A stretch of 64,000 bases of DNA, taken from assembly GCA_000442015.1 (NCBI GenBank), contig KE561209.1, positions 186,001 to 250,000 of the forward strand, written 5' to 3'. Shown piece by piece: positions 973 through 49,454 of this stretch (position 1 is the stretch's first letter; each line of letters opens with the position of its first letter). Below the pieces are notes generated by a model, which was not told the origin of the DNA, ran no database searches, and worked only from the letters and a program-made list of their open reading frames with translations. The position numbers were made by a program, and so were the translations under genes. This DNA is from Rozella allomycis CSF55. Lineage: Eukaryota.

Positions 973-2429
973 TTATGAACAAGATTTTAGTCTATCACGA
1001 ACTATTAATTCATGTATATTATCAATGGCTTCTTTAGCGCTTGATTTGTACATGACAAAATGACCTTGTATTTGTGCTGGAGATAATGTCTCATTTTCTA
1101 CTAATGAAAGAAATCGTTCACAGAGGTCAGAATCTTCAGGATAGAATCGGTTAAACATTTTAGCTTTTTGACTCGCACTCGCTAAGCCAATGTATTGTTT
1201 AACATCCACTCTGCCAGGACGTATTAACGCAGGATCTAATTTATTGTAGTGATTTGTAGTCATAAAAATAATTCTTTCTTCAGATGCAGTGACTCCATCA
1301 AGGGCATTCAAAAGACCACTGAATGAAACGTGCGTTGTAACCCTATGTATTGAAATACCCCCTTCTTACTGTCCTTTAGCTTTCCTATTCTCATCAAATG
1401 CTGCGTCAATATCTTCTAACAATAGTATACTTCTTTCAGGTGCATTACTGAGCAAATGATTAAATCGATCATCTGTCATAACACCCTCTCCAAGGTNGGC
1501 TGCGTCAATATCTTCTAACAATATTATACTTCTTTCAGGTGCATGACTGAGCAAATGATTAAATCGATCATCTGTCATAACACCCTCTCCAAGGTTAATG
1601 ATGCAAATATTGTAATCTAATGACCCCGCCAACGCTTGAATGAATGAACTCTTTCCAGTACCTGATTTTATATTATATTATTTTATACCTGGATCACCAT
1701 ATAGTAAATATCCTCTTCTATACGGAATTCCTTTTGCCAATACATTATTCAGTTACCTCGATCTTGATACCATTTTCCGTTGCTTCTAAAATCTTGGACA
1801 TCGTTTAATATCATATCTGATATCCCATCATCTAATACTACTGATTCTAGTGGTCTTTTTCGCCGTGGTTGTCCAAATTGTCGCCACTCTGATCCCCAGC
1901 TTGTATATATGATAGTCTTCCCTTCATTTGATTTCAAAGCATTTTCTTTTGCTTCGATTAATAAATTTATAAAATAAGATTTATCACGACCAATAGTAGT
2001 CAATAGTACATTCTCGAAAGGAACTCCAGAATTCACGTCCATAATCTGACCTTCTCGTTTTCGTTCAATCTATGAATATTGAAGAATTTTAGTTACTTTT
2101 AGCCATCTTCCGTTCCATTTAAGATAATGAACACCCGGACTAGGAATCATGGCAAATCCTATCTTTTTAGAGTCGCGTTCACTTGACACAACAGTTTTAA
2201 CGCTCAATTGTTGGGTCTTTTTACTGTTATATGTAAGCCAATTTAAAACCCATGTGTAGCTTGGATCTTTTGACGGAATTTCCAACTTCATGATACAATA
2301 TTGTTGTAAGAAAAATGAAGAGCGTACAACTAAATTTCTGGCAACAGAAAGGCCAGTTCCGACACCAATTAATCCAAATCCAGCTGAAAAGTAGGGGTTT
2401 TGGGCAAATAACTCTAAAAGAGTTTCCAT
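973..2429 (-). CDS. BCS1: Mitochondrial AAA chaperone BCS1
   Basis: [15 protein letters not shown]-terminus, [20 protein letters not shown] Walker A, LLEDID Walker [12 protein letters not shown]; internal duplication around N at 1497 is an assembly artefact. Confidence 0.95.
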
Positions 2430-14923: not shown

Positions 14924-16178
14924 ATGAATAGCACAACAGGATTAAATGATAATATGAGACAAACTTTGTTTCTGGCTTTAGAAGCTCTTGTGGATAACGA
15001 CAATTTGATACCAAACATAAATATCAGGAAAAAATCGAGTTTGCTATACCCTTTAATGACTGAAAATTCAGCGAAAACTATTACATCTACTACAAAGAGA
15101 AGGAGAGATACGACACCGACGTCCCCCTTTTTGAGTCAAGACTTTAAGGCTTTGAAAATTTCACCCTCTTTTGAAATGGACAGGCGTAAAGCTGAAGATG
15201 AAGATCCCACTGAAGAGTTAACTATCGAGTCTATGATAAACACCCAAAAGTCTCGTTCTTTATTAAAGTCACCAATATCACGACGCAAGAACGAATCTGC
15301 AAACCGAACCCGACCGGAAAATCAGTTCACTGTTAATTCGATTATGGATTCTCCTCCTCTCTCTTCTGTCTTACTTACTGAACAAATAGATTTGATAGAT
15401 AACTCCTTTTCCATAACAGATTCAGATATTCAACATTTTGAAAACGTTGTATCAAAGCCGTACCCTTTTTCTGAAAACATAGACATGGATGTCAACGAAA
15501 TACTTCAATTTTCACATAATCATAGCGCGATTTTTGAATTTGCGTTAAGCACGAACAATCCTTCTCACGAAAAAGTTATCCGTTGGGTCAACGCTACGTG
15601 GCTTTCGTGCATTGATAGAATTAAATCTTCAACATCACAAAACTTTTCTGCTTTTAGTGAAAAAGAAATAGTTATGGCTTTAATGGAGGATATTAGCAAC
15701 AAAGTTGTGCGATACAATTCGTCATTGTACACTGATTCATTACTCATTAAGATTCTAGAGCTGACAGTTTTCCACTTGCAGAAAGTTTCGATTGAATATT
15801 CTGAAACTATTAAAAAACAGTCTAAAAGTAAAATTATGGAATACTTCCAACAATATTTTGAAGTACCTTTCCTTTGTTAAGCCAATATTGCATCAGGCTG
15901 AAAGATTCGATTCTCAAATGATCAATTTACTATCATCTATTGGTGGATTACTTCTTGACGTCGGGTTGACCCTTTGTGAACATATAGTTAACCAAACTAC
16001 AGCAAAAGGTTCTACGGTTACTAGAACAATCCCTTTCCTTACACAATGGGTAATCTTTGCATTTCGTTTCGCATATAAATGTATTACTTTTTTCGGCTCT
16101 GAAAGAGAAACAGAGATGAAAATGCAGCTGTTACTTGCCAAACTTCAATCTAAATTGAAAAGGTCAGACTTGCTTTAG
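14924..16178 (+). CDS. Hypothetical protein (S/P-rich N-terminus, helical C-terminus)
   Basis: 318-aa ORF joined to a second ORF via GT donor at ~15863. Confidence 0.6.
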
Positions 16179-16398
16179 AGACCAACAAGAATTAATTGAC
16201 TATTTTATTTTAAAAATATTAATAATTGTAATAAATATATTCATCTTGACCACTAAATTTAATCAAAAACATTTGACTTCATTCGAGTGGATAAATTAAC
16301 TATTATTCATAAGCGTCGGAGTTGACTTAAATCACGATTACCATTTGATTTCATAGCCTTTTAATTTTTACCCACAAATTTCCTAATCTAGCAATATT

Positions 16399-17692
16399 AT
16401 GAAACCACATATTCCTAGAAAATATTGCTTTGTCATTCATTGTCGAGCATATAGTCAAGACAAGGCGCATCAATTAAATTGGTTTCCTGGGCATATGGCC
16501 AAAGGCTTGAGGCTCCTCGAATTCTACTCTAAAAAGGTTGATCTGGTGATAGAAGTTCGAGATGCAAGAATATCCTTTTTGTTAATATATTAAATACAAA
16601 CAGATCTTCTTAACTTCAAGTTCCATTCTCTTCAGAAAACCCCATGATACGCGACGTTTTCAAGAATGACAAACAGAGGCTGATATTATTCAATAAGTGC
16701 GATTTAGCCGACAAAAAGATGACAAAAGTACTGTAATATTTCCGCACATACTAAGTTTGTAATAGAACGTTTTCGCAAAGAGGGTTTGCAATGCGCTGCA
16801 ATAAACGCCAAGTGCCGCAAAGATGTGTCGAATGTATTAGACACAGTTAAGAAAATATTTTTACCAGATAACGATCGAGTATTAAAGCCAAGGACAAAAA
16901 TGATTATTGTTGGAGCTCCAAATGGTAACATGCATTTCATTCGATGGTTCTAGTTGGAAAATCAACTTTAATTAATAACTTCAGGTCGATGGCATTAGGA
17001 ATAGCAGGTAAAGCGGTGCCTGTTGGAAAAATCCCTGGTATTACAAAGACCACGGTAAGTAAATATGCTTTATATGACCCGGGTCAAATGATTAAAGTCA
17101 ATCAACATCCACTTGTTTACATGCTAGATTCTCCTGGTAGATCTTCTTTTAATTTTAATAATTAAGGGATTCTAGTTCCCAACATAACAAATATGAATAT
17201 CGCTTGTAAACTATTGATTGTTGGATGCGTGAAAGAAGGAATGATTGAACCTGTAATCGCAGCTAAGCAATTTATAAAATTAATGAATGAAGCTAGAAAT
17301 GAAAAGTAACCTGTATTTTGCGGATTTATTTATACAGGTACTTTAAATTTATCGGCCTTAATGCTCCAGTCAGTGAAGACGAAGAGCATAAATTTCTCAG
17401 GCAAATATGCAACCACCATAAAATATTTAAATCAGGTGGTGATTACGATTTTCAGAGAGCCTTTGAATTCGTTCTTCGACGATTTCGTGATGGTCACTTT
17501 GGAAGAATATCATTGGATGAGCCCCACGATTTAGGATGTTTAAAAAAAGAATTACAAATGAAAAGATTTATGAAATCACTAACTAGGCGCGAGAGAAAAG
17601 AAGTGAAAGACTCCAGATCTTCAAATGAAATGGAGATCCAGGAAAGGGTGCAAAACTTTCTCGGCAGAGAATCAATAAATTTGGATGATTAA
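16399..17692 (+). CDS. MTG1: Mitochondrial ribosome-associated GTPase MTG1 (RbgA/YlqF family)
   Basis: WFPGHMAKG, IEVRDAR, NKCDL, GAPNVGKST, LDSPG, GRISLD. Confidence 0.93.
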
Positions 17693-17786
17693 TATTGTTT
17701 TTAATTTAATTAAATAATTCTTATTTTTTTCTTGAGGGGAATTGTTTTTACAAGGCTCGGAAATTTTGCAATTTGTGAGAACGGTT

Positions 17787-19454
17787 ATGAGAAACTCGAT
17801 TACAGGATCGAGTGCAAAAATATCAGAGTTACAAAATGATCAATGCAAGGAAATTCTTCATGTGCATGTAAAAGACAAAGATGAAATTAAATTAATATAC
17901 GATTTTGGCGAAGTGTTAGGCCAGTAATTCATCTTGGAATTTATTTTTTAGAGGCGGCTTTGGAACAGTTAGATTAGTGAAAGAAAAGGGCACAGAAAAT
18001 ATTTACGCTGCAAAAGTTGTGAAGAAGAGTATCGGATCTCCATTGAGGCTAGAACAGATGGAGCGCGAGGTTGAAATATTGAAGCACGTGTCACATCCTT
18101 GCATTGTAAAGGTTAAAGAGGTATATGATACTCCAAAAGCTATATACATGATCATGGAATGGTAAAAAGTGGAGAAGAATTGAAGTAGGTGCCAAGGCGG
18201 AGATTTAGTAGACTACGTGAGCAAAATGAAGGAAATAAATGAAAGTCATATAAGAGTTATTATGAACAAGATTATGGACGCCATTGGTATTTCTGTGGAT
18301 TTGAGATAACATAGCGTTCCTTCATGATAATGGGATTGTGCATAGAGACTTAAAAGTAAATTATTCAGCTCTTATTGAAAGCCTGAAAACATTCTTTTGA
18401 GAAAGACTGGGGATCTTGGTTTTGATTTATGTGTGAGTGATTTTGGACTTGCAACTCTCAATGGAACATCAATGACAATTGGAACAAGCGAAATGATGGA
18501 TAACATGGTAGGAACAACGACTTACATGGGTAATTGATGCATAAGATGTCATATCAGCACCTGAAGTTCAGGGTAATGTAGGCTACTCAAAACAATGCGA
18601 TATATGGAGTGTAGGTGTAATGATGTTTCTACTGTAATAATTAATTGAGTATAAAAATAGCTTCTGCAAATTTGATAAAGAGGCAATGGTTAATCTTAGA
18701 GAAATGGTTGACTCTAAGAAAATTGCCTTTGAGGGCCCACGATGGGAGGGAATATCTAATGCGGGTATTGTAAATAAATGTTTTAAAATAAAGCCAAACA
18801 TTGTATCGAGAGAATGCTTAGACTGGATCCAGCTGAGCGCGCAACTGCTAAAGAAATTCTCAAACATCCCTGGATGCTGGTAAACATTAAACTTAATAGG
18901 ATATTGAGGGCCATGAAGATGTCGATTCAAAATATAATGCGACTGCTACTGTTTTAGATATGATGAGAAGTTACAACTCTGAGCGTCGATTAAAGGTAAT
19001 CATTTCATTATCAAGAAAGGAGAAAATAATGTTTGTTGTTTATGCAGCGTGTATATTGAGCTATCCTTATTTGCCGAAGTCTCTTGAATACCACGATGAA
19101 GAAGAAAACGAATCTCATTCAATGGAATTGCCATCTATTAATATAGGACCCAAGCATCAACCAAAAAAGACAACGTCTACACCCTCATTACCAGATATCG
19201 CAAAGTCTTCCAGGAGTAGCAAAACATCTGAGATATCCAAACATGAAAAACCAAATCTAAATAAGAACTTTGGAGGGTCGAGTAAACGACTCTCCACGAT
19301 ATCTCTTCAAACGAACAAAGGCAATCACCGAATCAGCAACGATGATATTTCTCCTCAACCGAGATCAAAGACGGGAAGTGTTTCCGATGTATCCAATTAT
19401 CGAAGGACATCAGTAGACAACAGGCTAAGAAAAAAAGAAGGCGCCAAAAAATAA
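17787..19454 (+). CDS. CAMK-group Ser/Thr kinase, STK33-like
   Basis: LGQGGFG, EREVEILKHVSHP, HRDLKPEN, SDFGLA, GTTTYMAPEV, YSKQCDIWS, TVLDMMR motif. Confidence 0.8.
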
Positions 19455-19480
19455 ATTTTATATAGAATTCAAACAAATGA

Positions 19481-19951
19481 TCAGTTCGAGTCGTAATCGA
19501 TTACTAATCCTTTTATCTTTGGTTTAGAATCATTTGTTGGTTTCTTTACAGCCTTTTTAATTAACTTCTTTTGGTTCAAAGATTCTGATATTGATGTATT
19601 CTTTTTCTTGGAGCCTTTAATTTCCATATTTTTTTCCTCCAATGGCTTGATTACAACTGATTCTTGGTCCATTTTGTATTTTAGCAGCGCATAATTTTCT
19701 TCTTCTTTTGAAGCTTGATACTTTTCTTTCATTTCATCATAAAGCTCTTTATAATGAAAGTATTCATCATCGTCTATTCTTTTTAAGGTATTATTCAAAC
19801 GATTTCTCTCCCTCCACATTTCTTCTTTTAACTCTTTTTGTTCTAAAATTCTCTCACTTAATGATTTTATCGGTTCAGAGGGCGGTTTAGGGGCATTCTT
19901 TATTTTTTCTTTTTCATTTACTTTTTCCACTATATTATCCCATTCTGACAT
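19481..19951 (-). CDS. FAM192A/NIP30 (PSME3IP1)-like protein
   Basis: SLSERILEQKELKEE...IDDDE..F and C-terminal GLVIDYDS. Confidence 0.7.
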   Translation of the reverse strand: MSEWDNIVEKVNEKEKIKNAPKPPSEPIKSLSERILEQKELKEEMWRERNRLNNTLKRIDDDEYFHYKELYDEMKEKYQASKEEENYALLKYKMDQESVVIKPLEEKNMEIKGSKKKNTSISESLNQKKLIKKAVKKPTNDSKPKIKGLVIDYDSN

Positions 19952-19975
19952 GCTTCAGATTCGTAAATTTGCAAA

Positions 19976-20212
19976 ATGGATTCCATGAAAGAAAAGGTCT
20001 TTAATTCTGCCAAAAAAGTTGACAAATATCACGATGAATTAATAGATTTTGTCTATGCCTTGCCTGAGACCCTAGACAATTTTGAATCTGACTATGAGGT
20101 ATTGTTCAAATTTGACAGTGTATAGATGATAGAAAAGGATTTAATGCAACAATATGACTATAACAACAATCTTTTATTACAGCTGATCAGTGCGTTGGAC
20201 AATAAAAAATAA
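19976..20212 (+). CDS. Small hypothetical coiled-coil protein (~69 aa, two exons; absent from ORF track)
   Basis: MDSMKEKVF...ESDYE | 27-nt GT-AG intron | MIEKDL...LDNKK*. Confidence 0.5.
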
Positions 20213-20257
20213 ATCATGTGATGGAGTCTCTTTAACTTTACGAAATATCTAATTTTT

Positions 20258-20941
20258 ATGAACCGAAAAACGCCCGATGAATTAAGAGCTCTAAAGGTAG
20301 CGGATTTAAAAAAAGAGCTTGGGAAATACGGTTTGCTCTTGACTGGTAAAAAGGAAGAGCTTATTGACAGATTAATTTGCTATTATGAGTAAAATAAATG
20401 CTCAAAGTATACTAGAACATCCGTTGAAAAAAAGCCTAAAGAGCCTGTAATTGAAATTGAAGATCACAGTGAAACTATTTTAACCCACGATGACAATGAA
20501 AGTAATGCAACCGAAAATAAAGATTTGTCTACTGTGATTAATATAAATAAAGAACTCAGTGAAGATGAGAAAAGAAAATTAAGAGCACAAAAGTTTGGAA
20601 TTGAATTGAGTGAAGAAGATAAAAAGAAAACGAGAGCACAGAGATTTAGTCAATCTGGAATAGATACGGTAACAAAATAGCAATAAATGATATTAGAATA
20701 ATTTAGACGTATTAAAAAAGAGGCAAGAAAGATTTAATTTTACAGGAAAAGCTTTGGATTCTGCAGAAAACGAAGAAAAACTTAGAAAACGAAGAGAAAG
20801 ATTCGGGTTAGTGGAACCGAACAAGGATTTTGAAAATAAAAAGGTATTTTTTGATGGTAGTTAAAACAGGGTAACAGTAATAGACATGGAGTAGGATTTA
20901 ATCGGGGCAGGAGAGGAAAGCGATCATTTCGTCCATATTAA
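20258..20941 (+). CDS. THO1: SAP-domain RNP Tho1/SARNP (absent from ORF track)
   Basis: SAP motif LKVADLKKELGKYGL..TGKKEELIDRL; repeated KRKLRAQKFG / KKRQERF / RKRRERFG; three GT-AG introns. Confidence 0.85.
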
Positions 20942-20992
20942 GCAGTACAATAAAATATAAATTTAGTTGAATTTAATGCATTTAAATTTATT

Positions 20993-23130
20993 TTATGTTG
21001 TTGGAATTTTCGTGCTGTTCGAATAACGCCTAGAATTCCTTCTAGGTTGAAATTGAACCGAATTCAATGATTCGACAGATCTATCGAAACCTCGATCGTA
21101 TTTATCAGGCATATGATCTAATACCATTGTTTTGCTAACGAGTATTTCGACAAAGTTTTCAGGGCTATTCTTTTCGATTACGGTGAATTTTGGGTTGGTC
21201 GGGGTGGGTTTTACGTACAAATGGTAGACAGTACCAGGAACATATAGCTGGAATATTTCAATGTATTAATTACTTTTTGATATGATAAAGCAGAAGTCTG
21301 AACCATTATAGCATTCCTGCATTCATCTAGTTTCTTCATCAAGTATTTTGACTTTTCGGATTTTGCCTCTTTACCAGCAATGATCCTCATAAGTTCTTTA
21401 AAATGGCTGTGACAATTTTCAGCGGCACACAGAATCATCGTCTTTAAATCCATCTTGTTGCGATATTGAGGAATACTTACCATCGATCCATAAGATGCGC
21501 GTGAAACAATATCTTCGCCATATATATATGAATGGATGTAATGTGAATATCTTTTTGAAATGTCAAGAGACACAACGCACGGCGGTGCGTATGCGTAACA
21601 TTCTATTTTGAACTTTTCTCGTTTAGGAAATTCATGGTAATGATCTTGAAGCATGATTGTTAACAAGGCTGCTGTACCTGCTCCTAAAGAATGGCCAACT
21701 ATCATCAAGTTCTCAACGTTGTAAATTGATACAAAGGAAATCAGTTGGCCAAGAACATTATCAATGAACCATTGTGCACTGGCATGAATTCCAGAATGAA
21801 CTAGCCCACCTTTCCACGGCTTATATTCACACACAAGGTCTGTTAAAGAATCTTTAAAGCTCATTGTGCCACGTATGCTTAAAATTATTGCAGATGTTCT
21901 TCTGTCAATTGCAATGAAATAACAAGGCCTGAAGACTTTTTCACTTGCTAGTTCAAAATTTAAAAGATCTGGTTTCTGAAGAGAAAGATATTCCAGAACA
22001 CTCTTTTCATCAGATTTGGACCGCACAGAGTCAGCAATGTATCCATTCCCCTTACCAAAGAAATTTAGCCCCTTCCATCCATAAGCTGCCATAGAAAATT
22101 TATAATAATGGCGAGATCTTTCAGCAAATTCCATAGAGTTGACCAAATCCCCGGTTCTTGGTCTAAAATTGAATGAAAACATAAAATTAACCTTGGGACG
22201 TGGAGATAAAAATTCTCTAATATGAAAATACTGGCGATCAATGTGGCATTACTAATCTCTAAGCCTTGGTTATAAGCCACCAAGATTGATTGAATTCCAC
22301 GAAGAACAGCAAGGGTTTCTTTACTAACAATGTAAGATCCAATTGTTTCCAGAAAAGAAACTCCTTTAGAAATTTCAGCCTCGGTCTCTAGAAATGTTTC
22401 TGTTGTTGAATAATCTGATGGTTGAACTGAAGAAATTTCATCATTGTCAGCCAAACTAGATTTACTTTTCCATTCGTTTATTAAATCTTCGAAAGAAATT
22501 TGCTTTTCTTTATCCTTCAACGTATTTTCATCTTCCACTTCTTCTTGGATCTCTTCTGGCACTTCAAACCCCATTCTGGAGATTGGGTTTACAGGATCTG
22601 GATCTGGCTTTTGAAATTGATATTTGATTGACACTTGAATAGCCCCAATATTATCTGAATAAATCGACCGTCTTCCTACTTCTGAAACACTGCTGGGAGC
22701 TTTTCTTTTATGCCAAATTTCAAACCAACTATATTTAAAGCAATATCCAACATACCAAGTAAACGGACATGGTATGCCTTCAAGCAATGAGATTCTTATC
22801 TCAGCCCTTCCAATATATCGGTCAGCTAAAACCAAATTGGAATCATAAACGTCCATCTTTTATTAATTTCTAGTTTTATTACATGAATAGACCAGAATAA
22901 TTGAGCGTGATATGTAACATTGAACTCAAATCCTTCATTCCAGTCTCCAATGGATGTATACGATGCCGATGTTCTGCAAACTTGATTTCCCAAAGAAAGT
23001 CTAATGTAAGGCCTCTTAATATCCATTGAAGAAGACATCTGCAGCACAGTCAGGTATAGCTTTGCAGAATGTGATAATTCCGAACCTTATATAACACACT
23101 ATTCCATTAGATACTCTGACTTGTTGACAT
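20993..23130 (-). CDS. C2-domain + class 3 lipase (DAG-lipase-like)
   Basis: C2-like PYIRLSLG..WNEGFEF; SIRGT, VHSG, GHSLG nucleophile, YAYAPP, DIVSR, MVLDHMP. Confidence 0.85.
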
Positions 23131-23163
23131 AAATCACTAAATCCAAAATCTGAAATTTCAGAA

Positions 23164-25110
23164 ATGACATGTCTTAGAGCAAAGCAAACTTTGGCTTTAA
23201 CAGAAATGTTAAAGTCTGTAGATAGTCTGTTCAAAGTCCTAATTTATGATGCTAAAAGCCAAGAAATTATCTCGCCACTCTTAAAGGTCTCCGATTTAAG
23301 AGATTTGGGAGTCACCATATTTTTAGCATTGCAAAGCGAAAGGATGTCTGTAGATGACGTACCCGCGGTTTATTTTGTAGAGCCAAGATTGTACAGTATC
23401 AGGAGAATAAGTCAAGTATACAATTGGTTTTGCATTTTCTGTAGGATCTCGAAAAAGGACTATATGAACAATTTTACTTGAATTTTACAAGTAGTTTGCC
23501 AAGACCGTTGCTTGAAGAGTTGGTTAGCTTAACTGTGAATAACCAAACCTATGGCAAAATTGTCAAAGTTTATGATCAATATCTAAATTTTGTAACCTTG
23601 GAAGACTACTTGTTTTCGTTACAAGCACATGATTCTTTTTCTATTATTCATGGACCGACCACTTCTCAGACAGTCATTGATGAATTTATTGACAAGACAA
23701 CCCAGGGGTTATTTTCATTATGTGTGACACTCGGTATTGATTTAAATTTAATATAACTAGGTGTTGTACCATCAATTAAAGCATCCAAAGGCAATGCCGC
23801 TGAAATTATCGCTTCCAAAATCGAATCGCGTTTGAGAGATTACATGTTGAATAACAGAAATGTGACTACCAACAGTGATGTTTTCAAACAAAGACCAGGT
23901 AAAAATATTCAAATTAATTAATTTCTGTTTTAATTCTATTGGATAGACATTTGGATTTGGGGATTATGATAAAGCACACTTGGAGTTATTCTACATTGGT
24001 ACACGACGTCTTGAATATGAATTTAAATAAAATTTCGATAAATGTTAATGAGAATGGACAAACCAGCAGAAAAATCGTTAGTGTGGATGACAAGGACTTT
24101 TTTTGGAAGACAAACTTCTTTGAGCCATTTCCACAAGTGGCAGAGAGAATCGATGAAGAAATTACAAAATATAAAAAAGAAGTTGAAGAAGTGACAAGAA
24201 TGGGTGGTGTTGAAAGCATCAACGATCTCAACCCATCGGACAATCAGTTTAACGCTCAACAACTGAAAGTCGCTATTTCAGCAGTTCCAAAATTAACAGA
24301 AAGGAAAAGAATAATTGACATGCACATGAATTTAGCAACATGCCTTTTAGATGAAATAAAGACGAGAACTATTGATAACTTTATAGCGTTGGAAGAAGAT
24401 TTCAATAAAACAACCAAAACGCAAATTTTAGACATTTTGAATGGCCAGAGTTCTTCCAATGACAAACTTCGTCTCGTTATTGCCTCTATTTTAGCGAACC
24501 CTGGTCAAGACTATTCTGATTTAAAAACAAAATTAGAATCATTGAATATCAACATAAGCGCCATTAGGTTTATTGAAAAGTAAAATTTAAATTAATGGGT
24601 TCATAGAAATCGTTCGTTGGGAAGAATGACTGACAAAAATGTGAAAGTGAGTAGCTCTAATTCGTCACAAGATTTGTTTGGAAAGTTTAAATTACCAGAA
24701 AATTTTAGAGAGGGCTCCTCTATTCTTGGAGGAGCTCTTGGTAATTTGATGTCCGGAGTTAAAAAGTTGTTTCCTGTTCATTCCGACTCAATAATTACAA
24801 GGATGATAGATTCCATATTATTAAATGAACAAGAATCAGAAAGTGATTTTGTTTCATTAGATCCAACGCAATCAAAAGCAGATAAGAAGGGGAAGAATAC
24901 CACGCCCGTAGCACCAAAGGAAGATGCGATAGTGTTTCTTGTAGGCGGTGGAAACTATTTGGAATACCAAAATATACAAGAATATTGCACAGTAAATGTT
25001 TTTTACTTGTATTATAGCGAACGAAACGAAAAATTATCTATGGGGCAACGGAAATTGTAACCCCTGACAAATTTCTAAACCAATTGCAAGAACTAGGAAT
25101 TCCAAAATAA
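23164..25110 (+). CDS. SLY1: Sec1/Munc18 protein Sly1 (SCFD1)
   Basis: FKVLIYD, IISPLLKVSDLRDLGVT, DVPAVYFVEP, IDMHMNLAT, AIVFLVGGGNYLEYQN. Confidence 0.95.
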
Positions 25111-25226
25111 AAACATTGATAAAATTCATTTGCTATTTGCAAATATTGCATATTTCGACTTCCTTCGTCTAGAATAAAAAATGTGCGAGGACCCTTTATT
25201 GTTACTTTTGATGATCACAAACCACA

Positions 25227-25297
25227 GCGTCAGTGGTTTAGTGGTAAAATTAGCCCCTGCCACGGGTTAGCCCCGAGTTCGATTCTCGGCTGACGCA
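25227..25297 (+). tRNA. tRNA-Gly (GCC)
   Basis: GCGTCAG/CTGACGC acceptor stem, D-loop AGTGGTA, anticodon loop CTGCCAC, T-arm CCGAG-TTCGATT-CTCGG, followed by a T5 terminator. Confidence 0.95.
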
Positions 25298-25424
25298 TCT
25301 TTTTGGACAATTAAATTTTCTTTATGATTTGCCAATTCAACTTTTCATTTATATTCCATTCAAATATAACCCTAGCCTAAGCAGAAACATGTTTGTTTTG
25401 GAAAGCATTGATATACATCGCTTA

Positions 25425-25620
25425 TTTTTTTTTTTTTAAATATATACAATTAAGTCAATAATCGTATTTATTAAGGATGAGGGATCCACATCGTCAAAGT
25501 CACCAAGGAGTCGAACCCTGCCTCACCCTAAAACCCCGGAAAATTCGGAAACATGGATGGGGTTCGAACCATGCACCTAGACGTCCAAAAGGATCTAAGT
25601 TTGCCACTAGACCACCGGAC
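25425..25620 (-). mobile_element. tRNA-derived SINE-like element or tRNA-like Pol III ncRNA
   Basis: Minus strand: A box TGGTCTAGTGG, B box GGTTCGAACCC, second B box GGTTCGACTCC, then AATAAA and an A13 tract; acceptor stem not formed. Confidence 0.5.
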
Positions 25621-25660
25621 AGTCATTTGTCTTTTCGTAACTTGTAAATTTCCGACAAGT

Positions 25661-26087
25661 ATGACCACGAGAAAACCCAGATCACAAAGGTAAATTTCTT
25701 TTTAATGTAATGTTTTGGTATGTTAATGGTGCATTTGGTCCATCTCAGCAAAGCTACGCTCCCGCTCAACCAATAGCCACTGTGCAAGAATACGAAGATC
25801 ATACTTCGCACTATGTTAACAGACTGTCGTCTAAAGTTGATACGCTGAAATCAGTATTCTTTTATATATGTTTTTATTAGATCAGCATAGACATAGGCAA
25901 GGAGGTTAATGAACAAAATCAATTTCTAGATTCTATGCGAACTGATTTTGAAAAGTCCGAAAATGTGCTTAGTCAAACATTAATGCGTTTAAGAGTTATG
26001 GCTGCAACTCAAGGGGGTGGTATGTTTTTGTACTTGACTCTTTTTATCGTCGGTGTTGTTAGCTTCATTTATTTTAAGGTTTTATAA
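25661..26087 (+). CDS. BET1: Qc-SNARE Bet1 (absent from ORF track)
   Basis: LSSKVDTLKS|ISIDIGKEVNEQNQFLDSM..DF, C-terminal TM anchor; start 25661 or 25710. Confidence 0.88.
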
Positions 26088-30527: not shown

Positions 30528-31623
30528 CTATTTTGATTTAGCCCGAGATACACTGGATGCATTGACTCTTTTTAGGGTGCTGTTTATAAAATTTCCCGCC
30601 ACAATAAGTTTGTCCAAGTTGACACCAGTGTCATATCCTAGTCCTTGTAGCATGTATACCACATCTTCTGTAGGTACATTTCCCGTTGCCCCTAATGCAT
30701 ATGGACATCCCCCTAGAAAACAAATTACCTATCTATCATACCTAGACCCCCGACTGAACCATCCACTACTCTAATCCCATACTAACAGCACTTTAATAAG
30801 TTTTTACTTCTTCAACTGCCACATAAATATTAGCCAATGCTTGTCCGTATGTGTTATGAAAGTGAACTGCTAATTTGTCACTGGGGATCCGATGCTTTAA
30901 ATAATCTAGTAAAGATCTAATTTCACCTGTCAATAAAATGTTTAAAACTTACCCGCATGACCAATGCCTATTGTATCACCTAAGGACACTTCATAACATC
31001 CGAGATCAAGTAGGCGATTAGAAACCTCAAAGACTCTTTCGGTTTTAACTTTTCCATCGTAAGGACAAGCAATCACACAGGAAACATATCATATTATATC
31101 ACTACTTTAGAATTACCCTCTTGTTTTAATATTATTTCTTGTAGCTTCCTTTATAACCGGTTCAAATCTTTCAAAGCTTTCGTCAATACTGCAATTAATA
31201 TTTTTCTGAGAAAATCCCTCACTTGCTGAAGCGAATACCGCAATTTCTTTCACATTGGATTTTATCGCCAACTCCAAACCTTTCAAATTTGGTACTAATG
31301 CTGCATAAGTAATTCCCGGTTTTTGATTAATTTGTGAAAATACATCTGCCGCGTCTGCCATCCACTGGATTCTGTAGCTTTGTCATTACCTGAGGGATTC
31401 TCTTTGGAGACACAAAACTACTAGTTTCAATATATTTTAATCCCGTGTCACTTAAGAGATTAATCAATTGTACTTTATTAGCCGTGCTAACGAGTGTTTT
31501 TTCATTCTGAAGACCGTCGCGTGGACCAACTTCTACGATTTTAACAAACTTTGATGCCTTTTAGAACTTATTTTAAAATCATACCGTGGATTTGAATCTG
31601 CGACTCAACGCTAGTAATATCAT
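30528..31623 (-). CDS. HMGCL: HMG-CoA lyase
   Basis: [68 protein letters not shown]. Confidence 0.96.
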
Positions 31624-49086: not shown

Positions 49087-49454
49087 TTCTTAAATTTTGT
49101 AAAATAATTTTTAATACCTCAATCAATGGTTCTCCCATTATTGTTTCGGGTGCTTTAATGTATTTTAATTGTAGCCGTAATAGTTTAATTGTACATGTAT
49201 ATTGTATTGCTTACATTTTCTTAATAGCCATGAAATTAAGAAAAAGTTAAAAGAGATAATAATTTTAATAAAAGGACTCAAAATGCCTTGCCAAAATAGG
49301 CTACGTACAAATCTCAACATTCCCAAAGTAAGTTCACTGAAAATCGGGTTGGATGTGAATCTGATGTGTGAAAGTCAAAATAAATACCTATCATACAATC
49401 CAAGGACCAAGAGTATATGGCTGAGCCAAATAAATGAACTAAGCCACAGTCGAA

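What the first reader, a model, noticed from the sequence alone, without database searches (positions are those of the whole stretch)
23899..23927. SLY1 intron must end in TG
Sequence is AGA CCA G|gtaaaaatattcaaattaattaatttctg|TT TTA ATT CTA TTG GAT AGA. Removing 29 nt yields RP-VLILLDR, the conserved SM-protein motif. There is no AG until 23945-46, which from this donor gives a frameshift and TGA. The downstream frame has TAA at 23915, so an upstream acceptor is excluded.
Basis: partly seen in the sequence, partly recalled or inferred. Interest (0 to 1): 0.7.

Follow-up and report, generated by a model that had tools for sequence, protein, structure and literature searches.

The report
Rozella SLY1 intron ends in TG
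A 29-base intron in the vesicle-transport gene SLY1 of the parasitic fungus Rozella allomycis ends in TG instead of the near-universal AG, and the gene can only encode its conserved protein if the cell cuts exactly there; no RNA data were available to prove that it does.

Summary
Window 23899-23927 is a 29-nt element (GTAAAA...TTTCTG) inside the SLY1 gene of Rozella allomycis CSF55. Removing it joins ...FKQRP to VLILLDR..., which is colinear with yeast Sly1 and 13 of 13 fungal homologs. No AG-ending solution keeps the conserved frame.

It looks like an ordinary intron of this genome apart from its last two bases. It has a GTAA donor, and its 29 nt fall in the 26-29 nt class that holds 51 of 61 filtered canonical introns in the window. 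It sits at the same position and phase as a GT-AG intron in 4 of 5 metagenomic SLY1 relatives.

Two deep re-assemblies carry the same letters over the whole intron, T at 23926 included, with no second contig there. Four differences between haplotypes in the gene are all synonymous.

A second GT..TG intron (27 nt, 31090-31116, minus strand) interrupts the HMG-CoA lyase gene in the same window, with an exact fit to solved structures.

The public gene model skips 70 conserved residues to reach an AG.

No RNA run holds the gene, so use of the TG is inferred, not shown.

Earlier notes of this scan report GT-TG introns on other pieces of this genome. I did not check them.

Best reading, about 0.7: Rozella uses TG as the only 3' splice site of a small share of its mini-introns.

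The parts
23164..25110 (+). SLY1 (Sec1/Munc18-family) gene of Rozella allomycis CSF55, ATG to TAA: six exons, 602 aa in my model
   Evidence: spliced model made by coordinates; 502 of 502 residues of the public protein P0002 are identical to the model; 1mqs Sly1 at E 6.7e-35, and PF00995 on the hits.
23761..23898 (+). Exon 3, ending ...NSDVFKQRP plus the first base (G) of the Val codon
   Evidence: residues 3-38 align to yeast Sly1 218-253.
23899..23927 (+). The finding: a 29-nt mini-intron, GTAAAA donor, last two bases TG, phase 1
   Evidence: Same position and phase as GT-AG introns in L002-L005.
23926..23927 (+). TG in the place of the AG acceptor dinucleotide
   Evidence: X1 contig 22656-25256 and X2 contig 16254-25255 differ from the window only at 23507, 23519, 23528 and 23531.
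23928..24579 (+). Exon 4, starting (V)LILLDRHLDLGIMIKHTW
   Evidence: aligns to yeast Sly1 265-466 from its first residue.
23945..23946 (+). First AG downstream of the donor, 19 nt past the TG. Using it gives a frameshift and TGA.
24136..24137 (+). AG used by the public gene model (239-nt intron), which deletes 70 conserved residues
23416..23444 (+). SLY1 intron 1, 29 nt, GT..AG
23734..23760 (+). SLY1 intron 2, 27 nt, GT..AG
24580..24606 (+). SLY1 intron 4, 27 nt, GT..AG
24992..25017 (+). SLY1 intron 5, 26 nt, GT..AG
31090..31116 (-). Second GT..TG mini-intron (27 nt, GTAATTCTAAAGTAGTGATATAATATG, phase 2) in the HMG-CoA lyase gene
   Evidence: The exon before it ends at residue 141 of 2ftp_A and the exon after it starts at 143 (138 and 140 in 2cw6_A), leaving only the split Gly codon. 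The X1 and X2 contigs 31075-31608 show 0 other letters.

Best explanation
Window 23899-23927 is a true spliceosomal mini-intron of the Rozella allomycis SLY1 gene. It descends from an old intron at this position and now ends in TG instead of AG. The cell most likely still removes it exactly, cutting after the TG, so that TG is the only (constitutive) 3' splice site of this intron.

Shown here: the sequence; the T at 23926 in independent re-assemblies; the exact protein colinearity; the conserved intron position; the normal donor and length; and a second such intron 7 kb away.

Inferred: that splicing at TG really happens, and how. My proposed mechanism is that in these 26-29-nt introns the 3' cut site is set mainly by its distance from the 5' splice site and branch point, plus the terminal G. 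The base at -2 would then matter less than in longer introns.
For: (1) Removing the 29 nt gives ...FKQRP-VLILLDR.... All 13 full-length fungal homologs aligned have RPVL[IV]LLDR with no gap at the junction. Yeast Sly1 aligns from residue 265 at the first residue of exon 4.

(2) Intron anatomy. The donor is GTAAAA and the length is 29 nt. Of 61 filtered canonical candidates in the window, 57 start GTA and 51 are 26-29 nt long.

(3) In 4 of 5 metagenomic SLY1 relatives (L002-L005) a GT..AG intron splits the same Val codon after its first base. L001 has no intron there.

(4) DNA. The X1 and X2 contigs (depth 300 and 374) span the site and differ from the window only at four other places. In each of X1, X2 and X6 the depth of bin 23414-24014 equals that of the single spanning contig. 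Bins with two allelic contigs (15000-16201) show roughly double depth.

(5) Those four differences all lie in SLY1 exon 2 and are all synonymous third-position changes. The gene is therefore under purifying selection, and T at 23926 stands both in the window and in contigs that carry the other letters at those four places.

(6) The 70 codons that an AG-only model must skip are open and match Sly1 strongly.

(7) A second GT..TG intron of 27 nt lies in HMG-CoA lyase. It fits solved structures exactly, and its internal AGs at +12 and +15 both lead to a stop.

(8) Of 54 canonical introns, 35 contain internal AGs that are passed over, most of them close to the 5' end. This fits a length constraint on the choice of 3' site.
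Against: No RNA evidence exists. No RNA run holds the gene, and the one RNA run laid gave only 8 pieces of 19-33 letters.

In humans TG acceptors are never the sole 3' site. AG>TG mutations there activate other AGs rather than splicing at the TG (PMC2374985, abstract and section 12).

The third DNA run (X6) differs from the window at 55 places in its contig. Only 27 of them were printed, all at or before 21907, so its letter at 23926 was not seen.

Contigs drop rare variants. All runs may be of one culture strain, so a mutation fixed in that strain would look the same.

The census finds only introns with GT donors and open coding flanks. Its counts are rough.
Confidence: 0.7

Rival explanations
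1. The A-to-T change at 23926 is a damaging splice-site mutation. The intron is not removed correctly, and the transcript is retained, frameshifted, or spliced to the AG at 24137 as in the public model. This SLY1 copy is then dead or crippled.
For: Human AG>TG mutants do not splice at TG (PMC2374985 section 12). The public annotation uses the 239-nt GT-AG intron. All DNA runs may be of one strain.
Against: The skipped 70 codons are open and strongly Sly1-like. A 239-nt intron lies far outside the length class, where the longest of the 61 filtered candidates is 36 nt, although that census only looked at lengths of 18-60 nt. Four of four differences between haplotypes in the gene are synonymous. 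The search of longer proteins returned only one Rozella Sly1-type protein among 120 listed hits. A second conserved gene in the window has the same TG ending, and two independent hits both being A-to-T at -2 is unlikely for random damage.
Confidence: 0.12
2. The intron is spliced, but at another non-AG boundary. One option is the one-base slide GG..CT (23898-23926), which gives the same mRNA. Another is an in-frame neighbour: 26 nt ending TT, or 32 nt ending TT. In that case there is no defined TG rule.
For: The base before the donor and the last base of the intron are both G, so the cut is ambiguous by one base. In-frame alternatives without stops are listed.
Against: GT at the 5' end is invariant in the 61 canonical candidates, by construction of the scan, and 57 of them start GTA. 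By my reading of the letters, the 26-nt and 32-nt versions add or drop a residue, whereas 13 of 13 homologs have no gap at the junction. The orthologous introns in L002-L005 split the codon at the same base as the 29-nt version.
Confidence: 0.08
3. T at 23926 is an assembly or base-call error, or only one of two alleles, with the other allele carrying a normal AG.
For: The assembly has single Ns and a duplicated stretch around one of them. Haplotype differences of about 1% exist in this region. The letter in X6 at 23926 was not shown.
Against: Two re-assemblies from reads at depth 300 and 374 give T. There is no second contig over the site in X1, X2 or X6, while allelic contigs are kept elsewhere in the same runs.
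Confidence: 0.05
4. There is no splicing: the ribosome changes frame (-1) between 23917 and 23919 and reads through.
For: The two frames overlap by a few bases between the stops at 23915-17 and 23919-21.
Against: By my reading this would add ten residues between RP and VL, where 13 of 13 homologs have none. I see no X XXY YYZ slippery heptamer there. The element has the donor, the length and the orthologous position of an intron.
Confidence: 0.02

Closest known systems
TG-AG tandem alternative 3' splice sites of human U2-type introns (Szafranski et al. 2007, PMC2374985: outline, abstract and section 12 read; GNAS and TSPYL2 examples in passages of PMC4176328)
   Same: A GT donor of the ordinary type with TG as the last two intron bases. 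In SLY1 an AG lies 19 nt downstream, within the 28-nt limit reported for human TG-AG tandems. The base at -3 is a pyrimidine (C) in SLY1.
   Different: In humans TG is only ever an alternative to a productive AG and never the sole 3' site, and AG>TG mutants do not splice at TG. Here the AG alternatives destroy the reading frame, so TG would have to be constitutive. In the HMG-CoA lyase intron the next downstream AG is 41 nt away and -3 is A. These introns are 27-29 nt long, far shorter than human ones.
Canonical mini-introns of the same genome (GTA...AG, mode 27 nt) in this window
   Same: GTAA donor, length 29 (27 for the lyase intron), A+T-rich, no pyrimidine tract, frame-breaking if retained.
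   Different: The last two bases are TG instead of AG. The base at -4 is T, where 38 of 61 canonical candidates have A.
Orthologous SLY1 intron in metagenomic relatives L002-L005
   Same: Same codon (Val after Arg-Pro) and same phase 1. L002's intron is also tiny: about 25 nt by my count of the printed letters.
   Different: All four end in AG. They are 30-48% identical at protein level, so they are distant relatives and not Rozella.
Rare GT-TG junctions in RNA-based fungal annotation (Ganoderma lingzhi, PMC11590231, passages with Table 1 seen)
   Same: GT-TG junctions are recorded in a fungus.
   Different: There they are 22 junctions, 0.024% of those tabulated. In this window the rough share is 2 TG introns beside 61 filtered canonical candidates, about 3%.

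Membership tests
Spliceosomal U2-type mini-intron of Rozella (GTA..AG class) | GT(A) at the 5' end | tested here: met
   GTAAAA at 23899-23904. 57 of 61 canonical candidates start GTA.
Spliceosomal U2-type mini-intron of Rozella (GTA..AG class) | Length in the narrow 26-29 nt class | tested here: met
   29 nt. 51 of 61 canonical candidates are 26-29 nt long.
Spliceosomal U2-type mini-intron of Rozella (GTA..AG class) | AG as the last two bases | tested here: not met
   TG at 23926-27, with no AG inside the intron. X1 and X2 contigs show no difference from the window anywhere in the intron.
Spliceosomal U2-type mini-intron of Rozella (GTA..AG class) | Interrupts a coding frame, and removal restores colinearity with homologs | tested here: met
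Spliceosomal U2-type mini-intron of Rozella (GTA..AG class) | Intron position shared with orthologs | tested here: met
   4 of 5 metagenomic relatives have a GT-AG intron at the same base.
Spliceosomal U2-type mini-intron of Rozella (GTA..AG class) | Absent from mature mRNA | not testable with these tools
   No RNA holder listed. The RNA run X12 gave no real cover.
TG-AG tandem 3' splice sites (Szafranski 2007) | TG used as the 3' terminal dinucleotide of a U2-type intron | tested here: inconclusive
   The sequence requires it, but use in RNA was not seen.
TG-AG tandem 3' splice sites (Szafranski 2007) | An AG 3' site within 28 nt | tested here: met
   SLY1: an AG ends 19 nt downstream. Lyase intron: AGs 12 and 15 nt upstream, inside the intron, and the next downstream AG 41 nt away.
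TG-AG tandem 3' splice sites (Szafranski 2007) | TG is only an alternative; the AG partner is a working splice site of the same intron | tested here: not met
   The AG partner gives a frameshift and a stop in SLY1 and stops in the lyase gene. TG would have to be the sole productive site.
Sly1/SCFD1 branch of Sec1/Munc18 proteins (gene identity) | Sec1-family domain with best matches to Sly1 proteins | tested here: met
   1mqs_A Sly1 at E 6.7e-35, against Vps45 at 6e-05. The hits carry PF00995 and several are named Sly1.
Programmed -1 ribosomal frameshift site | Slippery heptamer, and a product that matches homologs | tested here: not met
   No X XXY YYZ motif at 23912-23921 by my reading. The product would carry ten extra residues (my reading) where all 13 homologs have none.

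The most novel reading that the evidence does not exclude
The spliceosome of Rozella allomycis picks the 3' splice site of its 26-29-nt introns mainly with a ruler (distance from the 5' splice site and branch point) plus the terminal G. TG, and perhaps any NG, would then serve as a constitutive acceptor in a few percent of introns, including introns in essential conserved genes. That would make Rozella a eukaryote in which the AG rule of U2-type introns is relaxed at percent-level frequency. It would also explain many broken public gene models.
Probability: 0.5. Interest if true: 0.75.

Novelty: new variant of a known kind. Interest (0 to 1): 0.6.

Why it matters
AG at the 3' end of U2-type introns is one of the firmest rules of gene structure. 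The best-studied exceptions, the human TG sites, work only beside a usable AG. TG as the sole acceptor in conserved genes of a deep-branching relative of Microsporidia would give a natural system for asking how the second step of splicing reads the 3' site when the intron is almost as short as the spliceosome allows.

There is also a practical side. Gene finders that insist on AG damage the models. The public SLY1 protein lacks 70 core residues for this reason, and such errors carry into databases and phylogenomic matrices built on this key taxon.

Tried and rejected
RNA evidence: no RNA holder was listed for window 23100-25150. The only RNA run offered (X12, found by species label) gave 8 pieces of 19-33 letters when laid at 90% likeness, which is no real cover.

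Whole genome: none is held. I therefore could not look for a second SLY1 copy, for more TG introns, or for splicing factors.

X6, a further sample: its contig covers the site, but only 27 of its 55 differences were printed, so its letter at 23926 stays unknown.

Other non-AG candidates from my scans were rejected after reading the DNA:
- 17306 (+) is a canonical 32-nt GT..CAG intron.
- 18880 (+) has a canonical but only 20-nt GT..AG solution.
- 1745-1770 (-) is a mis-set donor; the real intron is a canonical 26-nt one in a BCS1-like gene (name recalled).
- 1048 (+) and 24798 (-) are antisense to coding exons.
- 21242-21273 and 31359-31389 (-) contain in-frame canonical AGs at 26 and 25 nt.
- 49090-49117 (-) is probably a start region with weak flanks.
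- The others lie inside canonical clusters.

Branch-point motif: no clear one emerged. The top 5-mers, TTTAA, TTAAT and ATTAA, occur in 12-13 of 54 introns, as expected from an A+T-rich composition.

Literature:
- 'Rozella allomycis' + intron gave 64 papers, 20 listed.
- Rozella + 'splice site' gave 5 papers.
- 'Rozella allomycis' + RNA-seq + Allomyces gave 12 papers.
- None of these listings describes Rozella splice-site dinucleotides. From them I read passages only in PMC8476143 (2.5 introns per kb) and PMC6349667.
- PMC5701793 has 0 occurrences of 'intron'.
- The Rozella genome paper is not in the library.
- No supplements were opened.

Earlier notes near this place: none.

Rfam on 25100-25800 found only tRNA-Gly.

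Full report
WHAT THE WINDOW IS. The window has about 35% G+C and is densely packed with genes that are broken by very short introns. The best database match of the exon after the finding is 'Sec1-like protein [Rozella allomycis CSF55]' (P0002). All 502 residues of P0002 are identical to the protein I obtain from the window. The window is therefore that organism's own SLY1 locus. No whole genome is held for it.

THE OBSERVATION. Window 23899-23927 reads GTAAAAATATTCAAATTAATTAATTTCTG: 29 nt with no AG inside. Upstream, the frame reads ...NVTTNSDVFKQRP. Reading on in that frame gives GKNIQIN and a stop. Downstream, another frame reads VLILLDRHLDLGIMIKHTWSYSTLVHDVL... for 218 codons. That frame is closed just upstream by TAA at 23915-17. 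The first AG after the donor ends at 23946. With this donor it keeps the wrong frame and meets TGA after seven codons.

The motif alone means nothing. GTA plus 26-29 nt ending in TG occurs 373 times in the window, about as often as the AG version at 381. The weight lies in the coding context.

THE JUNCTION IS FIXED BY HOMOLOGY.
- Exon 4 aligns to yeast Sly1 (1mqs_A) from its very first residue: query 1 to chain 265, E 6.7e-35.
- Exon 3 aligns to residues 218-253 of the same chain and has eight more residues.
- A six-exon model made by coordinates gives a 602-residue protein. Aligned with 13 full-length fungal homologs, all 13 read RPVL[IV]LLDR with no gap at the junction, as does the model.
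- The public model P0002 uses the same donor but jumps 239 nt to the AG ending at 24137. It thereby loses 70 residues, VLILLDR...EPFPQ, which are exactly the ones that match Sly1 best.
- P0002 also lacks three other conserved pieces: GVVPSIK, NRSLGR and VGGGNYLEYQNIQEYCT. In each case the modeller took a longer GT-AG option. It is no evidence of how the RNA is spliced.

IT IS AN INTRON BY EVERY OTHER CRITERION. I scanned both strands for GT-started elements whose removal joins two open, coding-like frames.
- It gave 61 filtered canonical candidates. 57 start GTA, 44 have A at position 4, and 51 are 26-29 nt long (mode 27).
- Their ends are TAG in 32, AAG in 20, CAG in 7 and GAG in 2.
- There is no pyrimidine tract. 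In the 54-intron subset the composition is A 43%, T 34%.
- The SLY1 element has the GTAAAA donor and the right length.
- The other four SLY1 introns are 29, 27, 27 and 26 nt long, and all end in AG.

A search of metagenome contigs for SLY1 relatives returned five loci at 30-48% identity. In four of them (L002-L005) a GT..AG intron splits the same Val codon after its first base. L001 has none. The Rozella element thus sits at an old, shared intron position, and only its base at -2 differs.

THE T IS REAL.
- Logan contigs of two runs, X1 (contig 22656-25256, depth 300) and X2 (contig 16254-25255, depth 374), differ from the window at only four places (23507, 23519, 23528, 23531) and have no gaps.
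- In X1, X2 and X6 the depth of bin 23414-24014 equals that of the single spanning contig. Bins at 15000-16201 hold two allelic contigs and about twice the depth. I see no second allele over the intron.
- The four differences all lie in SLY1 exon 2 and are all synonymous third-position changes. This fits a gene under purifying selection, with T at 23926 both in the window and in contigs that carry the other letters at those four places.

Limits: these are contigs, not reads, and contigs drop rare variants. X1 and X2 may be the source of the assembly. X6's contig has 55 differences of which only 27 were printed (all at or before 21907), so its letter at 23926 was not seen.

A SECOND CASE IN THE SAME WINDOW. 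Among donors with no AG solution, only one other survived reading of the DNA: 31090-31116 on the minus strand, GTAATTCTAAAGTAGTGATATAATATG, 27 nt, in the HMG-CoA lyase gene.
- The exon before it ends at residue 141 of 2ftp_A (138 of human 2cw6_A). The exon after it starts at 143 (140). Exactly the one split Gly codon lies between them.
- Read-through, and the internal AGs at +12 and +15, all meet stops. The TG cut gives ...[19 protein letters not shown]....
- X1 and X2 contigs cover 31075-31608 with no differences.
- All other candidates turned out canonical, antisense or weak.

In this window the rough share is two TG introns beside 61 filtered canonical ones. Both exceptions keep the final G and have T at -2.

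EARLIER NOTES OF THIS SCAN report GT-TG introns in other pieces of the same genome: PEPCK and a kinase, ATG26, aprataxin, myosin V, TERT, and one unnamed gene. They also report two GT-CG introns (GID7, Vps41). None had RNA data. I could not check them, because no other DNA of this genome was available. I count them as leads, not as evidence. They agree with the second case that I verified here.

HOW IT MOST LIKELY WORKS. Shown: the anatomy described above. Inferred: the spliceosome removes the 29 nt and ligates 23898 to 23928.

Two observations suggest that 3' site choice in this genome depends strongly on distance. The length class is very narrow. And 35 of 54 canonical introns carry internal AGs that are passed over, most of them within 17 nt of the 5' end. 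If the site is set by a ruler and the terminal G, a T at -2 could be tolerated.

From memory and not from a call: cryo-EM structures of post-catalytic spliceosomes show the 3' G pairing with the 5' G, and the A at -2 contacting the branch adenosine. A U at -2 might keep some contact.

In SLY1 an AG lies 19 nt downstream, within the 28-nt limit of human TG-AG tandems. An early AG-dependent step followed by a late choice of TG, as proposed for humans, is therefore also possible here. It fits the lyase intron less well, where the next downstream AG is 41 nt away.

COMPARISON WITH WHAT IS KNOWN. TG is the classic non-AG acceptor of U2-type introns. However, the human survey found it in 36 genes only as an alternative, never as the sole site, and AG>TG mutants activate other AGs (PMC2374985, abstract and section 12). 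GNAS and TSPYL2 are named examples (PMC4176328, passages). In an RNA-based annotation of the fungus Ganoderma lingzhi, GT-TG makes up 22 junctions, or 0.024% (PMC11590231, passage with Table 1).

The Rozella cases differ in three ways. They are the only productive site of their intron. They lie in 27-29-nt introns. And they are roughly a hundred times more frequent in this small sample.

I found no paper on Rozella splice-site dinucleotides. The genome paper is not in the library, and no supplements were opened.

RIVALS.
- A damaging mutation, with the gene mis-spliced (0.12). Against it stand the conserved open 70 codons, the synonymous-only variation, the single Rozella Sly1 hit, and the second TG intron.
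- Another non-AG boundary (0.08). The one-base slide gives the same mRNA. The 26-nt and 32-nt versions do not fit the homologs or the orthologous intron phase.
- A sequence error or an unseen AG allele (0.05). Two deep re-assemblies with no second contig speak against it.
- A ribosomal frameshift (0.02). There is no slippery site, and it would add ten residues.

VERDICT. Novelty: a new variant of a known kind, namely constitutive rather than alternative TG acceptors in ultra-short introns. Interest 0.6.

Noticed in passing
window 31090-31116 (minus strand): A second GT..TG mini-intron, 27 nt, in the HMG-CoA lyase gene. It is exactly colinear with solved lyases only if cut at the TG.
   Followed up: yes
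window 23164-25110 (+), public protein P0002: The public SLY1 model lacks four conserved segments: GVVPSIK, a 70-residue block, NRSLGR, and VGGGNYLEYQNIQEYCT. In each case a longer GT-AG option was taken instead of the 26-29-nt intron.
   Followed up: yes
window about 1400-1600 (minus-strand gene, BCS1-like AAA ATPase; name recalled): A tandem duplicate of roughly 90 nt flanks the single N at 1497, with two mismatches between the copies. It looks like an assembly artefact from two haplotypes and would disrupt the gene model.
   Followed up: no
window 18880-18899 (+), protein-kinase gene: The only frame-keeping canonical solution here is a 20-nt GT..AG intron (GTAAACATTAAACTTAATAG), well below the 26-29-nt class. 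Read-through stays open for 25 codons.
   Followed up: partly
window about 25428-25625: A stretch next to tRNA-Gly(GCC) (25227-25297) has word depth of 17,000-39,000 against about 300 around it. Contigs of three DNA runs skip 198 nt here (25427 to 25626). It looks like a high-copy, insertion-like element, possibly tRNA-derived. Rfam finds nothing but the tRNA-Gly.
   Followed up: partly
window 19373-25291 and 23507-23531: Haplotype or strain variation of about 1%. X6's contig has 55 differences from the window. X1 and X2 differ from the window at four synonymous sites in SLY1 exon 2, where X6 agrees with it. The window looks like a mosaic of haplotypes.
   Followed up: partly
L002 (metagenome contig), just upstream of position 307: An unrelated environmental eukaryote (42% identical SLY1, 44% G+C) also has a tiny GT..AG intron (about 25 nt by my count) at the same SLY1 position.
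   Followed up: no
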